Below are positions 22,851-33,207 of a stretch of 39,699 nt of DNA, piece after piece (position 1 is the first letter of the stretch; every line of letters begins with the position of its first letter). The position numbers and the translations under genes were made by a program. Below the pieces are notes generated by a model, which saw only the letters and a program-made list of their open reading frames with translations, was not told the DNA's origin and searched no databases. The stretch lies in the UHGV virus genome UHGV-0270985. One strand, written 5' to 3'. Origin of the DNA: a virus.

Positions 22851-23291
22851 AGCCTCACCTCCGCAGCGAACGGATGGCGTAGTTATAAGGGGAGCGAAAA
22901 AGAAAGAATGCGCGATTGCGCAATATGGTAACGTCAGGGTATTATCCACTGGCTGAATAGATCACTTCACGTTTTTTGTTCCTTGCCGCCCGTATCCATA
23001 TGCGGGCTTTTTTTTGCATGTAAAAAGGCCCCAACACATGTGCGTGGGGCCTGAGAGTATACATGGTTTCAGTCAACTGCATGGTGCCGGGTGCCTCCCG
23101 GTGAATTCAGTACCAGCACCTGAATCCGCGATTATCCCATATACCTACTCGCTGATTGCCCCTCCGCACAGGGGGATTCACCATGCCAGTTTCTTTTAAC
23201 AAACTCCCCGCAAAACAGACAACTGTCAACCGTCTGAATTGTGAGACATTTAAAAAAAAGGCCCGCAAAAGCGAGCCGGGAAAAATAAGTC

Positions 23292-23368
23292 TGGCGCGTT
23301 GTACTGGATTCGAACCAGTGACCGATTGCTTAGAAGGCAATTGCTCTGTCCGGTTGAGCTAACAACGC
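23292..23368 (-). tRNA. argO: tRNA-Arg (anticodon UCU), argO-like
   Basis: Manual fold of the reverse complement: acceptor GCGTTGT/ACAACGC, D-arm GCTC...GAGC, anticodon stem ATTGC/GCAAT with loop CTTCTAA, T-arm ACTGG-TTCGAAT-CCAGT, 3' GCCA. Confidence 0.85.
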
Positions 23369-23381
23369 AGGGTACAGATAA

Positions 23382-23458
23382 TGGACCGCCATCGAGGACT
23401 CGAACCCCGCGCAACCAGCTTCGAAGGCTGGTGCTCTATCCTGATGAGCTAATGGCGG
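23382..23458 (-). tRNA. argN: tRNA-Arg (anticodon UCG), argN-like
   Basis: Manual fold: acceptor CCGCCAT/ATGGCGG, anticodon stem CCAGC/GCTGG with loop CTTCGAA, T-loop TTCGAGT, 3' TCCA. Confidence 0.75.
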
Positions 23459-23465
23459 TATGTGA

Positions 23466-23541
23466 TGGTGGCCCTTGCTGGATTTGAACCAGCGACCTGG
23501 CGATTATGAGTCGCTCGCTCTCACCTCTGAGCTAAAGGGCC
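23466..23541 (-). tRNA. ileZ: tRNA with CAU anticodon, most likely lysidine-dependent tRNA-Ile2 (ileZ/ileX-like); tRNA-Met cannot be excluded from the anticodon alone
   Basis: Manual fold: acceptor GGCCCTT/AAGGGCC, anticodon loop CTCATAA, T-loop TTCAAAT; matches the E. coli ileX layout from memory. Confidence 0.75.
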
Positions 23542-26300: not shown

Positions 26301-26456
26301 TTACTCCTCAGGTTCGTAGACTGTGAAGACAGCGACCTCCGTCTGGCCGGTTCGGATTCGTACCTCGCAGAGGTCTTTCCTCGTTACCAGTGCCGTCACT
26401 ATGACGGTTAAACAGATGACGATCAGGGCGATTAACATCGCCTTTTGCTGCTTCAT
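26301..26456 (-). CDS. hok: Hok/Gef-family type I toxin (HokD/RelF-like)
   Basis: 51 aa from ATG 26454-26456: MKQQKAMLIALIVICLTVIVTALVTRKDLCEVRIRTGQTEVAVFTVYEPEE; single TM helix and the conserved CE(I/V)R motif. Confidence 0.85.
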   Translation of the reverse strand: MKQQKAMLIALIVICLTVIVTALVTRKDLCEVRIRTGQTEVAVFTVYEPEE

Positions 26457-26747
26457 AGCCTGCTTCTCCTTGCCTTTCGGCACGTAAGAGGCTAACCTAC
26501 GTGTGTAGAGCATAGATATGGCCTCAGATTAATGTTAAGCGTCTTGCCGGACGCGTAATGTTAACTGGGGCTTTTCTCTATCTGCCTTTTGGTGTTCATG
26601 CCTGAGACAGATAGCCTCAAGCACCCGCTGCAATTCTACTTAACTCTCCTTTTCCCGCAAACCGTTTTTATCCCCAGCGGCAAATCGAATACACCACCAG
26701 CGCCACCGCCATCGCAATTCCTACCGTTGTTAATGCTTCAGGCCAGG

Positions 26748-27967: not shown

Positions 27968-28327
27968 TCAGCCTCCTTTGATGCCCGTGTTTACAACCAG
28001 GCAGGCCTCCTTGAGTACCCAGTCAATAGCGTCTTTCCATGCTCCGGTTTCAACTGGCGGATCCTCACGCCGTACCTGTTCATAAAAGCGCACAGCTTTA
28101 ACCAGTCCTTCTGATGTCACCGAAGCTGGCGGGGCCGTGAATAACGCCTGAATTTCATAGTTTGGTCTGTCGTTACAATCCTCTTTTGTCGGGACATATT
28201 TCCAGTCACCAACCCACTGCTTCCCCTGAAAGTCTGTAACGCCTTTTTTCACGTAGCGATATCGCCATGCCACTGGTTTTGCCTGCCCTGCCTTTTCATG
28301 CCCTTCCTGATAATTAATCTCGCTCAT
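27968..28327 (-). CDS. hypothetical 119-aa protein
   Basis: ORF with start overlapping the upstream stop (ATGA). Confidence 0.5.
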   Translation of the reverse strand: MSEINYQEGHEKAGQAKPVAWRYRYVKKGVTDFQGKQWVGDWKYVPTKEDCNDRPNYEIQALFTAPPASVTSEGLVKAVRFYEQVRREDPPVETGAWKDAIDWVLKEACLVVNTGIKGG

Positions 28328-28500
28328 TCATCGCCCCACTCATCACAATATGCTTCGACCGGTGTTTTCCCTGCTTCATAATCATCACGCCATGCTTCAG
28401 CATCAGCGGCACTTCCACCGCGTAACTCTGCATAATCCATTAACAGTTCATGCCATTCTTCAAAACTGGCGTTATATTTAGTTGAACCAAAATCAGCCAT
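28324..28500 (-). CDS. small acidic protein, 58 aa
   Basis: ATG 28498-28500; MADFGSTKYNASFEEWHELLMDYAELRGGSAADAEAWRDDYEAGKTPVEAYCDEWGDE; strongly net negative. Below the ORF-track cut-off. Confidence 0.4.
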   Translation of the reverse strand: MADFGSTKYNASFEEWHELLMDYAELRGGSAADAEAWRDDYEAGKTPVEAYCDEWGDE

Positions 28501-28675
28501 TTTGTTCTTCCTCTTCGTCTTTTATTTCGTGGTATGAGTAATTGCAGTAGTTAAAGAAAATATCTTTAGCTTCATCCTGTATTTCATCTGGTGTTGCATC
28601 ATCATCCACTTCGAATTCATCCTCGAAATCTCCACCGGCTATTCCCGTTTCAATAATTATTTTGAATTTTCGCAT
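28493..28675 (-). CDS. small highly acidic protein, 60 aa
   Basis: MRKFKIIIETGIAGGDFEDEFEVDDDATPDEIQDEAKDIFFNYCNYSYHEIKDEEEEQNG; Asp/Glu are roughly a third of residues; AT-rich. Confidence 0.45.
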   Translation of the reverse strand: MRKFKIIIETGIAGGDFEDEFEVDDDATPDEIQDEAKDIFFNYCNYSYHEIKDEEEEQNG

Positions 28676-28803
28676 TTCACTACCGCCCTTTCGGACGGCC
28701 TCCTGATGTTCTGAGGGTGCAGGAATCCCTCCGGTTAAGGATTTAATAAAAATCGTTTCTGATTTAAATCTTCAGTATTTAGTTGTTAGTCGGTTTATAG
28801 CCT

Positions 28804-29115
28804 TTATGCTTCGGCCTTATTTCTCAGCCATACACAAACCGGGCCATCTTCGGTGTCATGTATTGAACCAATAAACCATCCATTGCCCTCTGGTCGTTCC
28901 GGTTCCCATGCAGAAATATCAGCATCACACGCATCAAGGTCAGCACATCCTTCATCTCTGAAGCAGAGGACGTATTGAAGATTATTTTCCTCCATCCAGG
29001 CGTTAAACTCTTCCGTTGAAATATATTCCCGACCGTCACAGAATTTTTCATATTCAGGATGCGTCCAGTAGCCATATTCATCACGTACTACTGGTATTTC
29101 TTTAATTTCATTCAT
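28804..29115 (-). CDS. hypothetical 103-aa acidic, Cys-containing protein
   Basis: ORF preceded by an AT-rich ~125-bp gap (28676-28803) that may hold an internal promoter. Confidence 0.5.
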   Translation of the reverse strand: MNEIKEIPVVRDEYGYWTHPEYEKFCDGREYISTEEFNAWMEENNLQYVLCFRDEGCADLDACDADISAWEPERPEGNGWFIGSIHDTEDGPVCVWLRNKAEA

Positions 29116-29362
29116 TTCTGTTCTCCCACGTTTTCAGACTTTCACCACAGAACGGACAAAATGAAACCCGAACTGGTAATTTAGAAAATTCACCGGAACG
29201 CAACATCACAAAATCAGGACCGCGAGTTAAACTCTCATTCCAGATTTTGTATATCAGCAGACCTTTTCGCATCGTGTATTCAGCATCACGCTCAAGGGAC
29301 TTTGCCAGTGCTGCACATGGTTCTATCTTGTTGCCATTAACCTGGCATTTTGATTCACTCAC
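29108..29362 (-). CDS. hypothetical 84-aa protein with C-terminal CPFC zinc-ribbon-like motif
   Basis: Overlaps both neighbours by 4-8 nt. Confidence 0.5.
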   Translation of the reverse strand: MSESKCQVNGNKIEPCAALAKSLERDAEYTMRKGLLIYKIWNESLTRGPDFVMLRSGEFSKLPVRVSFCPFCGESLKTWENRNE

Positions 29363-32279: not shown

Positions 32280-32435
32280 ATGGATACTATCGATCTTGGC
32301 AACAGCGAATCTCTGGTATGTGGCGTGTTCCCCAACCAGGACGGCACGTTCACCGCAATGACGTATACCAAAAGCAAAACGTTTAAAACCGAAAATGGTG
32401 CCCGTCGCTGGCTGGAAAGAAACTCAGGTGAGTGA
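32280..32435 (+). CDS. ydfA: YdfA-like 51-aa protein
   Basis: Internal ATG with ribosome-binding site (aaggggaaatgaggtcagcATG); MDTIDLGNSESLVCGVFPNQDGTFTAMTYTKSKTFKTENGARRWLERNSGE; size and order match the Qin ydfA-ydfB-ydfC-dicF-dicB operon. Confidence 0.55.
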   Translation: MDTIDLGNSESLVCGVFPNQDGTFTAMTYTKSKTFKTENGARRWLERNSGE

Positions 32436-32436
32436 T

Positions 32437-32565
32437 ATGGATTTCGACACAATCATGGAAAAGGCTTACGAAGAATACTTCGAAGGCCTTGCCGAAGACG
32501 AAGAAGCTCTCAGCTTCAGTGAGTTTAAACAGGCGCTTTCCAGTTCGGCAAAATCTAACGGCTGA
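32437..32565 (+). CDS. ydfB: YdfB-like 42-aa acidic protein
   Basis: ATG 2 nt after the ydfA-like stop; MDFDTIMEKAYEEYFEGLAEDEEALSFSEFKQALSSSAKSNG. Below the ORF-track cut-off. Confidence 0.5.
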   Translation: MDFDTIMEKAYEEYFEGLAEDEEALSFSEFKQALSSSAKSNG

Positions 32566-33154: not shown

Positions 33155-33207
33155 TTTCTGGTGACGTTTGGCGGTATCAGTTTTACTCCGTGACTGCTCT
33201 GCCGCCC
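33155..33207 (+). ncRNA. dicF: DicF small RNA (53 nt, Hfq-dependent cell-division inhibitor)
   Basis: tttctggtgacgtttggcggtatcagttttactccgtgactgctctgccgccc followed by TTTTT; matches the DicF sequence as I recall it, including the GGCGG...CCGCC terminator stem. Confidence 0.8.

What the first reader, a model, noticed from the sequence alone, without database searches (positions are those of the whole stretch)
28324..28675. Two adjacent, overlapping, extremely acidic small proteins: candidate DNA mimics
The 60-aa and 58-aa products are dominated by Asp/Glu (for example FEDEFEVDDDATPDEIQDEAKD and IKDEEEEQ), with aromatic residues interspersed. That composition is typical of DNA-mimic anti-restriction proteins. 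The pair overlaps by 8 nt and lies downstream of a 125-bp AT-rich gap that could hold a promoter.
Basis: inference. Interest (0 to 1): 0.5.

Follow-up and report, generated by a model that had tools for sequence, protein, structure and literature searches.

The report
Two acidic phage mini-proteins, function unknown
Two real, very acidic 60- and 58-residue proteins sit side by side in an E. coli prophage; they belong to two unrelated, widespread families of unknown function that look like small decoy inhibitors, but nothing yet shows they imitate DNA or block restriction enzymes.

Summary
Two minus-strand genes, 28493-28675 (60 aa, net charge -15) and 28324-28500 (58 aa, net -12), overlap by 8 nt. 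They are the two most acidic of 69 ORFs in this lambdoid E. coli prophage. Both are real genes under purifying selection (dN/dS 0.02 and 0.17). The pair occurs in 1750 of 5426 complete E. coli genomes.

They are two independent families. The 60-aa protein is Pfam DUF7167, a beta-beta-alpha-beta mini-fold with 209 clusters in phages of Gram-negative and Gram-positive hosts, usually among replication or nuclease genes. The 58-aa protein is a Trp-packed three-helix bundle. It also occurs in Ackermannviridae and in over 500 conjugative plasmids; the ones examined are about 60-kb IncI2 plasmids. Elsewhere each has other neighbours, and the overlap belongs to the 58-aa gene's own 5' end.

Acidity is conserved position by position in both families, which fits an acidic decoy that plugs a basic, nucleic-acid-binding surface. 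No sequence or fold link to Ocr, ArdA, gp5.9, Gp2 or any solved mimic was found. No promoter was found in the gap, and no target is known. The DNA-mimic idea remains a plausible, untested hypothesis.

The parts
28493..28675 (-). 60-aa acidic protein (A60), a member of Pfam DUF7167 / PHROG 1997. Predicted fold: beta1(2-10)-beta2(15-23)-alpha1(29-40)-beta3(45-51), followed by an acidic C-terminal tail.
   Evidence: ORF and translation. PF23768 scores 54.5 bits against a cutoff of 24.4, and phrog_1997 has E=2.7e-30. AlphaFold2 model pLDDT 78. 209 clusters at 50% identity. Conserved acidic ridge at positions 19, 22, 24-26, 29-31, 33, 34, 38. dN/dS 0.018. RefSeq WP_001224665.1 'DUF7167 family protein'.
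28324..28500 (-). 58-aa acidic protein (B58). It matches the C-terminal part of PHROG 519 and has no Pfam family. Predicted structure: flexible N-terminus (1-12) followed by three short helices (13-27, 34-42, 47-55) packed around W16, W37, Y41 and W55.
   Evidence: ORF. phrog_519 E=8.5e-23. No Pfam, NCBIfam, PADLOC or PDB hit. AlphaFold2 model pLDDT 81. Conserved acidic positions 15, 33, 35, 39, 40, 42, 53, 54 and basic R38 and K45. dN/dS 0.17. RefSeq WP_000753053.1 'hypothetical protein'.
28493..28500 (-). 8-nt overlap ATGGCTGA: the start codon of B58 overlaps the last codons and stop of A60, giving translational coupling.
   Evidence: Sequence. The same ATGGCTGA junction joins an unrelated upstream gene (DUF1187) to the B58 homologue on IncI2 plasmids. 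The overlap therefore belongs to B58's module boundary. 78 of 80 viral contigs show the same geometry.
28676..28803 (-). 128-nt intergenic gap. The distal part (about 28748-28803) is AT-rich and varies between phages. The proximal part (about 28676-28747) is a conserved leader that travels with A60.
   Evidence: GC 0.42. No sigma-70-like promoter and no terminator on the - strand. No Rfam family. Fold z-score only -1.4. Megablast homology to other phages ends at about 28747, or at about 28706 in Stx phages. Leader variants are listed.
28682..28703 (-). GGAGG (28699-28703) running into a 7-bp GC-rich hairpin with a GAAA loop (28682-28699), which ends 6 nt before the A60 AUG. This is a possible structured ribosome-binding region. 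It is not a terminator, because no U-run follows.
   Evidence: RNAfold gives -17.2 kcal/mol for the 61-nt stretch. The hairpin is kept in all upstream contexts seen. The only common variant is C/T at one stem position (G-C to G-U), and a shortened stem persists where the 5' arm is replaced. Its function is inferred only.
27968..28327 (-). 119-aa downstream gene (PHROG 660; C-terminus resembles Ea22-like proteins). It overlaps B58 by 4 nt (ATGA) and usually travels with the pair.
   Evidence: ORF. phrog_660 E=7e-43 and phrog_250 C-terminal match. Present after B58 in 74 of 80 viral contigs. Junction sequence. Replaced by an ead/Ea22-like gene in ArgO145.
28804..29115 (-). 103-aa upstream gene, the third most acidic protein of the window (net -17, pI 4.14; PHROG 1372). 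It is a variable neighbour and not part of the conserved cassette.
   Evidence: Present upstream of A60 in only 19 of 80 viral contigs.

Best explanation
The window is a Rac/Qin-like lambdoid prophage of E. coli. The two ORFs lie in its rightward early operon, in the variable stretch between the replication genes and the DUF968/RusA/Q genes, which is the counterpart of lambda's nin region.

They are two unrelated, independently mobile single-domain proteins. One is a DUF7167 beta-beta-alpha-beta mini-protein and the other is a Trp-packed three-helix mini-bundle. Mosaic recombination placed them next to each other in E. coli lambdoid phages, and they are co-translated from one transcript made after induction or infection.

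The most likely function of each, separately, is a stoichiometric acidic decoy. Each would use a fixed patch of carboxylates to occupy a basic, nucleic-acid-binding surface of a host or defence protein and so keep DNA or RNA out. In A60 the patch is the end of beta2, the following loop and the exposed face of helix alpha1. In B58 it is helices 2 and 3.

For A60 the best specific guess is a nuclease or DNA-end-processing enzyme, of the RecBCD/AddAB or restriction type. Distant family members sit among phage nuclease, helicase and polymerase genes. In Klebsiella Guernseyvirinae the gene lies directly upstream of, and overlapping, the exonuclease gene, which is the same position that the RecBCD inhibitor gp5.9 holds in T7.

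Shown: the genes, their composition, purifying selection, predicted folds, position-specific conservation of acidic residues, distribution and genomic context. Inferred: time of expression, inhibitor function, nucleic-acid mimicry and the target.
For: Prophage identity and operon position.

Genes are real and selected.

A60 and B58 are the two most acidic ORFs in the window, with Ocr-like charge density.

Acidity is family-wide and position-specific. In A60, 11 positions between residues 19 and 38 are at least about 70% D/E in 93 sequences that are only 30-66% identical to it. These positions lie on the beta2 end, the loop and the solvent face of alpha1, while positions 21, 23, 32, 36, 39 and 40 are hydrophobic. 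In B58, 8 positions are at least 80% D/E around an invariant Trp/Tyr core.

DUF7167 sits beside DNA-metabolism genes in unrelated phages. In Guernseyvirinae it overlaps the 5' end of a 454-aa PD-(D/E)XK exonuclease, ahead of the Gp2.5-like SSB and the polymerase. In Enterococcus Herelleviridae it follows an exonuclease. In viral metagenome contigs its neighbours include SNF2 helicase, PolA, ThyX and a metallophosphoesterase. T7 gp5.9 overlaps gene 6 exonuclease in the same way.

No Gam-type RecBCD inhibitor is annotated in the stretch of the identical prophage that was examined, which runs from the small terminase subunit to the integrase.

The family is present in phages of Enterobacteria, Enterococcus and a Clostridia MAG. 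This fits mimicry of a universal ligand. B58 occurs in temperate phages, lytic phages and conjugative plasmids, which fits a target common to Enterobacterales.

Against: The three-dimensional charge pattern was not measured. Some of the conserved acidic residues in A60 (T28-x-x-E31) may simply be a helix N-cap.

The association with nuclease genes rests on a handful of lineages. Most neighbours of distant DUF7167 genes are unidentifiable and non-recurrent. In this window the gene is not next to the prophage's exonuclease.

Acidic mini-proteins can have many other roles. No experimental data exist for either family. The only published mention is a machine-learning anti-CRISPR prediction for PHROG 519 (PMC9409062).
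Confidence: 0.4

Rival explanations
1. One reading: one or both proteins are Ocr/ArdA-type mimics of B-form DNA that block type I restriction-modification enzymes.
For: Charge density equals that of Ocr. The genes are early and lie in an accessory region that elsewhere carries methyltransferases. The B58 family is carried by conjugative plasmids, which often carry ArdA-type genes (the ArdA point is general knowledge).
Confidence: 0.1
2. The proteins are accessory factors for the phage's own DNA-metabolism machinery, not inhibitors of the host. For example, an acidic adaptor or chaperone that binds and regulates a phage nuclease, SSB or replication protein.
For: DUF7167 genes are embedded in replication and recombination modules and are translationally coupled to an exonuclease in Guernseyvirinae. 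In this window the gene follows the replication genes.
Against: There is no conserved partner gene across the family. Neighbours differ in nearly every lineage, including this one. B58 also occurs on plasmids and next to capsid genes in Ackermannviridae. The position is the hypervariable accessory region, where essential replisome parts are not expected.
Confidence: 0.2
3. The two proteins form an obligate two-component unit, such as a heterodimer or a toxin-antitoxin-like pair, as the overlap suggests.
For: The 8-nt overlap and strict adjacency in 80 of 80 closely related viral contigs and in 1750 E. coli genomes.
Against: Those copies are all close relatives. At greater distance the families separate. 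DUF7167 without B58 is found in Klebsiella temperate, Guernseyvirinae and Enterococcus phages. B58 without DUF7167 is found in the Ackermannviridae, Morganella and Autographiviridae phages and the IncI2 plasmid that were examined. The same ATGGCTGA overlap joins B58 to an unrelated gene on plasmids. Both proteins are strongly negative, so electrostatic pairing is unlikely.
Confidence: 0.04
4. They are lysogen-expressed 'moron' genes that benefit the host, for example through superinfection exclusion or host regulation.
For: The prophage carries other lysogeny-associated cargo, such as hok/sok, DicB/DicF and IraM. There is a 128-nt gap upstream.
Against: No promoter-like site was found on the coding strand and no terminator follows the cassette. 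The genes are packed head-to-tail within the early operon. Both families also occur in strictly lytic phages.
Confidence: 0.06
5. They are anti-CRISPR proteins, as a machine-learning tool predicted for PHROG 519 in Kuttervirus genomes.
Against: The prediction rests largely on features that any small acidic protein shares. No Aca-type regulator is adjacent. The structural scores are at noise level. The very broad host range (Enterococcus, Clostridia, Enterobacteria) does not fit one CRISPR type.
Confidence: 0.05

Closest known systems
Pfam DUF7167 (PF23768) / PHROG 1997
   Same: The 60-aa protein is a full-length member, scoring 54.5 bits against a 24.4-bit cutoff. RefSeq already labels it 'DUF7167 family protein'.
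   Different: Nothing differs in membership. The family itself has no known function and no literature.
PHROG 519 (unknown function)
   Same: The 58-aa protein matches its C-terminal 62 positions at E=8.5e-23. Members occur in Kuttervirus and other enterobacterial phages.
   Different: There is no Pfam family. The PHROG profile is 143 positions long, probably because it includes read-through fusions with the upstream gene, such as the 127-aa DUF1187+B58 protein P0310. That explanation is an inference.
T7 gp5.9 (RecBCD inhibitor, 52 aa) and lambda Gam
   Same: Small, acidic early protein (gp5.9 has net -8 and pI 4.08). The gp5.9 gene overlaps the 5' end of the phage exonuclease gene, exactly as the DUF7167 gene does in Klebsiella Guernseyvirinae.
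   Different: No sequence similarity (hhalign 0.08% and 0.26%). gp5.9 does not appear among the structural matches. In this window the gene is not next to the exonuclease.
T7 Ocr (gp0.3) and plasmid ArdA, DNA-mimic anti-restriction proteins
   Same: The same charge density and pI, with acidic residues interspersed with aromatics.
   Different: Half the size or less. No sequence or fold similarity. Ocr is the first gene expressed on T7 entry (general knowledge), whereas these genes are mid-operon.
T7 Gp2 (RNA polymerase inhibitor) and T4 Dmd (antitoxin of RnlA/LsoA)
AcrIC9 and other small acidic anti-CRISPRs described as DNA mimics

Membership tests
Pfam DUF7167 (PF23768) | Full-length match to the family HMM above the gathering score (24.4 bits). 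| tested here: met
   A60 scores 54.5 bits with E=1.2e-14, covering residues 2-53 on profile positions 1-60 of 60. The profile search finds 209 clusters, nearly all 50-60 aa.
PHROG 519 | Significant match to the family HMM. | tested here: met
   B58 matches at E=8.5e-23, covering residues 1-58 on profile positions 76-137 of 143.
DNA-mimic proteins (functional class) | Small protein with a strongly negative net charge and pI about 3-5. | tested here: met
   A60 has net -15 and B58 net -12, both with pI 4.05. The feature is conserved family-wide.
DNA-mimic proteins (functional class) | Surface carboxylates arranged with the spacing and helical path of DNA phosphates. | not testable with these tools
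   Only secondary structure and pLDDT are returned for the models. From the sequence periodicity, conserved acidic residues line the exposed face of A60 helix alpha1 and the preceding loop, but distances could not be measured.
DNA-mimic proteins (functional class) | Binds the DNA-binding site of a target protein and competes with DNA. | not testable with these tools
   This needs biochemistry or complex prediction. No target is known.
Ocr / ArdA / ArdB-KlcA anti-restriction families | Sequence or fold homology to the family. | tested here: not met
T7 Gp2 RNA polymerase inhibitor family | Sequence homology to Gp2. | tested here: not met
T7 gp5.9 RecBCD inhibitor family | Sequence homology to gp5.9. 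| tested here: not met
   hhalign gives 0.08% for A60 and 0.26% for B58.
T7 gp5.9 RecBCD inhibitor family | Gene placed immediately upstream of, and overlapping, the phage exonuclease gene. | tested here: inconclusive
   True for DUF7167 in two Klebsiella Guernseyvirinae, and adjacent to an exonuclease in Enterococcus phages. Not true in this window or in most distant loci.
Known anti-phage defence system components (PADLOC) | Match to a defence-system protein model. | tested here: not met
   No hit at E<=1 for A60, B58 or either neighbour.
Anti-CRISPR proteins | Homology to a verified Acr, or an adjacent Aca regulator. | tested here: not met

The most novel reading that the evidence does not exclude
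DUF7167 would be a new, very widespread class of 50-60-residue nucleic-acid mimics. Phages of both Gram-negative and Gram-positive bacteria would use it to disarm a DNA-end-processing or restriction nuclease of the RecBCD/AddAB type. The 58-aa three-helix protein would be a second, unrelated inhibitor shared by temperate phages, lytic Ackermannviridae and IncI2 (mcr-1-type) conjugative plasmids, aimed at a barrier common to all DNA entering Enterobacterales.
Probability: 0.2. Interest if true: 0.65.

Novelty: new member of a known kind. Interest (0 to 1): 0.38.

Why it matters
The pair is present in about a third of complete E. coli genomes. The 58-aa protein also rides on hundreds of conjugative plasmids; the IncI2 plasmid examined carries mcr-1, the colistin-resistance gene. 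DUF7167 spans phages of very different bacteria. Neither family has any experimental annotation.

If either is an inhibitor of a host nuclease or immune system, it would add a compact new inhibitor family. It would also help to explain how these prophages and plasmids establish themselves, and it would supply a small reagent for switching off the target. If they are not inhibitors, they are simply two more small acidic orphan proteins of the variable early region. Short, clean genetic tests can decide this.

Tried and rejected
1. Homology to known families. Pfam, PHROGs, NCBIfam, PADLOC, and PDB searches by sequence and by profile gave only DUF7167 and two PHROGs of unknown function.

3. T7 Gp2 idea. 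By eye, 'FEV..DAT.eEI' resembles Gp2's 'FEVPIYAETLDEA'. The profile comparison rejected this at 0.17% probability.

4. gp5.9 homology was rejected.

5. A promoter or terminator in the gap: none on the coding strand. Known RNA families in the gap: none. The gap as a whole folds no better than shuffled sequence (z -1.4).

6. A conserved partner gene for distant DUF7167 members: none. The neighbours are nearly all different.

7. Placement of B58 in the plasmid leading region: not supported on the IncI2 plasmid examined.

8. The Morganella phage annotation 'DUF5419' for a B58 homologue was not reproduced with the current Pfam.

9. Literature. Nothing on DUF7167 or the accessions. PHROG 519 appears only as a computational anti-CRISPR prediction and in a proteome table.

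10. A first attempt to fetch distant loci with the 74-sequence alignment failed for lack of a conserved stretch. A 12-sequence subset worked. The genome-collection scan returned a single locus, from a Herbinix MAG.

11. One literature search failed on a term-length rule.

Full report
**Setting**

The window is a lambdoid prophage of Escherichia coli. The region around the finding is 100% identical to a prophage of strain 300709 that is integrated beside ompW. In that prophage the genes on the window's minus strand run in this order: cro-like regulator, YdaT-like protein, an HTH replication protein, DUF977, several small genes, hokD, DUF968, RusA, the Q antiterminator, lysis genes and terminase. 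The two ORFs therefore lie in the rightward early operon, in the variable stretch between the replication genes and Q. This stretch is the counterpart of lambda's nin region.

- ORF 28493..28675(-) encodes 60 aa and ORF 28324..28500(-) encodes 58 aa.
- They overlap by the 8 nt ATGGCTGA. The next gene (119 aa) overlaps the second ORF by ATGA.
- The 60-aa protein (A60) has 20 Asp/Glu against 5 Lys/Arg, giving net -15. The 58-aa protein (B58) has net -12. Both have pI 4.05 and 8-9 aromatic residues.
- They are the two most acidic per residue of 69 non-overlapping ORFs in the window. The upstream 103-aa ORF (net -17) ranks third.
- Their charge density (-0.25 and -0.21 per residue) matches T7 Ocr (-0.24) and exceeds T7 gp5.9 (-0.15).
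- The upstream gap is 128 nt with 42% G+C against 50% for the window.

**Both are real genes**

A60 passes the Pfam threshold for DUF7167 (54.5 bits against 24.4) and matches PHROG 1997. B58 matches PHROG 519. A profile search of 1.84 billion representative proteins finds 209 DUF7167 clusters, almost all 50-60 aa. B58 has 141 cluster-level relatives, all of about 50-70 aa when complete. Against the copy in Stx phage ArgO145, dN/dS is 0.018 for A60 and 0.17 for B58. The 352-bp pair is present at 80% coverage or more in 1750 of 5426 complete E. coli genomes. Some copies, in decayed Qin-like remnants, are pseudogenes.

**They are two separate families, not a unit**

In the 80 best viral contigs A60 is always followed by B58, but those copies are all at least 98% identical. 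At greater distance the two part company.

- DUF7167 occurs in a Klebsiella temperate phage at 70% identity, followed by a different small gene.
- It occurs in Klebsiella Guernseyvirinae and in Enterococcus Herelleviridae, and in a Clostridia MAG.
- B58 relatives occur in 198 phage records, mostly Ackermannviridae, and also in a Morganella phage and an Autographiviridae phage.
- B58 relatives also occur in 554 plasmids, 516 of them conjugative. The listed hits are mainly about 60-kb plasmids at 86% identity, and the one examined in detail is IncI2.
- On that plasmid the B58 homologue follows an unrelated DUF1187 gene with the identical ATGGCTGA overlap. The overlap, and the translational coupling it implies, is therefore built into the 5' end of the B58 module. 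It says nothing about a partnership with A60.
- Within E. coli the cassette itself moves. It is in the nin-like region here and in phage vB_EcoS-689R5, but in the leftward early region between Ea22-like genes in ArgO145.

**Structure**

The AlphaFold2 model of A60 (pLDDT 78) is a beta-hairpin, a helix, a third strand and an acidic tail. The B58 model (pLDDT 81) is a flexible N-terminus followed by three short helices.

**The acidity is functional, not compositional**

Across 93 DUF7167 sequences that are 30-66% identical to A60, positions 19, 22, 24, 25, 26, 29, 30, 31, 33, 34 and 38 are Asp/Glu in about 70-92% of sequences. Positions 21, 23, 32, 36, 39 and 40 are hydrophobic in 84-100%. Mapped on the model, the acidic positions form one continuous ridge: the end of strand 2, the loop, and the solvent face of the helix. 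Some of this (T28-x-x-E31) may be helix capping.

In 58 B58 relatives W37 and G44 are invariant, and W16, Y41 and W55 are 97-98% conserved. Positions 15, 33, 35, 39, 40, 42, 53 and 54 are at least 80% acidic, with conserved R38 and K45. Every full-length member of both families is acidic.

**Context of distant DUF7167 genes**

There is no recurrent partner. In 28 distant viral loci almost every neighbour is different. Where neighbours can be named, they are mostly DNA-metabolism genes: SNF2 helicase (twice), family A polymerase, ThyX and a metallophosphoesterase. In two Klebsiella Guernseyvirinae the gene overlaps the start of a 454-aa PD-(D/E)XK exonuclease that precedes the Gp2.5-like SSB and the polymerase. 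In Enterococcus phages it follows an exonuclease. This mirrors T7, where the 52-aa acidic RecBCD inhibitor gp5.9 overlaps the start of gene 6 exonuclease. The identical prophage in strain 300709 has no annotated Gam-type inhibitor in the stretch examined.

**The gap**

No sigma-70-like promoter and no intrinsic terminator is found on the coding strand. No Rfam family matches, and the gap folds no better than shuffled sequence. Its proximal ~70 nt travel with A60 in most contexts. Immediately before the AUG there is a GGAGG that runs into a 7-bp GC hairpin with a GAAA loop, followed by 6 nt. The hairpin is kept in every context seen, with a single C/U change that preserves pairing. It may be a structured ribosome-binding region, but that is inference.

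**Interpretation**

The best-supported reading is that each protein, on its own, is an early-expressed acidic decoy. Its conserved carboxylate patch would occupy a basic, probably nucleic-acid-binding, surface of a host or defence protein. For A60, a nuclease or DNA-end-processing enzyme is the most plausible target class. I put this at about 0.4.

The rivals are:

- an accessory factor for the phage's own DNA machinery (0.2);
- a lysogen-expressed moron (0.06);
- an anti-CRISPR (0.05), resting only on a machine-learning prediction for PHROG 519 in PMC9409062;
- an obligate A60-B58 pair (0.04).

**Literature and novelty**

No paper in the searched library mentions DUF7167 or the two RefSeq accessions. 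The proteins are catalogued but uncharacterised. If they are inhibitors, they would be new families within a known kind of phage counter-measure. The finding is a reasonable lead for a short genetic test and is not a demonstrated novelty.

Noticed in passing
window 28682-28703 (- strand); variants in L003-L083, L134, L135: A GGAGG merges into a conserved 7-bp GC hairpin with a GAAA tetraloop that ends 6 nt before the A60 start codon. The hairpin is retained wherever the cassette is found, with one C/U change that keeps pairing. A ~70-nt conserved leader accompanies it in most contexts. It may be a structured translation-initiation element.
   Followed up: partly
L091:1285-1320 (IncI2 plasmid NZ_CP016187.1) versus window 28480-28513: The B58 homologue on IncI2 plasmids is joined to an unrelated upstream gene (DUF1187) by the identical ATGGCTGA overlap. 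Any gene fused upstream of B58 in that frame ends in '-x-Gly-stop', supplied by B58's own 5' end. This is a neat example of a mosaic joint at a start codon.
   Followed up: yes
window 28804-29115 (-) and 32395-32565 (+): Two further strongly acidic small ORFs. One is the 103-aa gene just upstream (net -17, PHROG 1372). The other is a 56-aa ORF in the leftward early region (net -9, pI 4.05). Neither has a known function.
   Followed up: partly
window 26301-26626 (-): A hok/sok type I toxin-antitoxin locus: Rfam sok at 117 bits, with a Hok-containing ORF at 26301-26513. It lies about 1.7 kb downstream of the cassette.
   Followed up: no
window 33156-33207 (+), 23016-23215 (-), 23295-23541 (-): DicF antisense RNA, the sRNA STnc100 and three tRNA genes are carried by the prophage.
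   Followed up: no
window 29108-29362 (-): An 84-aa ORF (PHROG 4030) with paired Cys motifs (C..C near the N-terminus and CPFC near the C-terminus). It looks like a small zinc-ribbon protein and lies between DUF977 and the acidic genes.
   Followed up: no
L134 (E. coli ETEC1720 chromosome, 2301154-2307505): Copies at about 89% identity lie in a decayed, IS-riddled Qin-like remnant near flxA/ydfW. There the DUF7167 gene has an internal stop, and a class I SAM-dependent methyltransferase gene lies immediately upstream.
   Followed up: partly
proteins P0154, P0165, P0224, P0244: Some DUF7167 relatives are tandem duplications of the domain in one polypeptide. Others are fused to Cys-rich (zinc-ribbon-like) segments or to a long Pro/Asp/Glu repeat tail.
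   Followed up: no
PP818812.1 (hits H17, H40): A record named Actinobacillus phage vB_Apl-pPE4 carries this E. coli prophage segment at about 95% nucleotide identity. That is unexpected for a Pasteurellaceae host and may reflect a mislabelled or contaminating phage.
   Followed up: no
L085:4001-5525 and L137:1060-2107: In Klebsiella Guernseyvirinae the DUF7167 gene overlaps the exonuclease gene by 11 nt. In T7 the RecBCD inhibitor gene 5.9 overlaps the gene 6 exonuclease by 14 nt. The gene architecture is parallel although the proteins are unrelated.
   Followed up: partly
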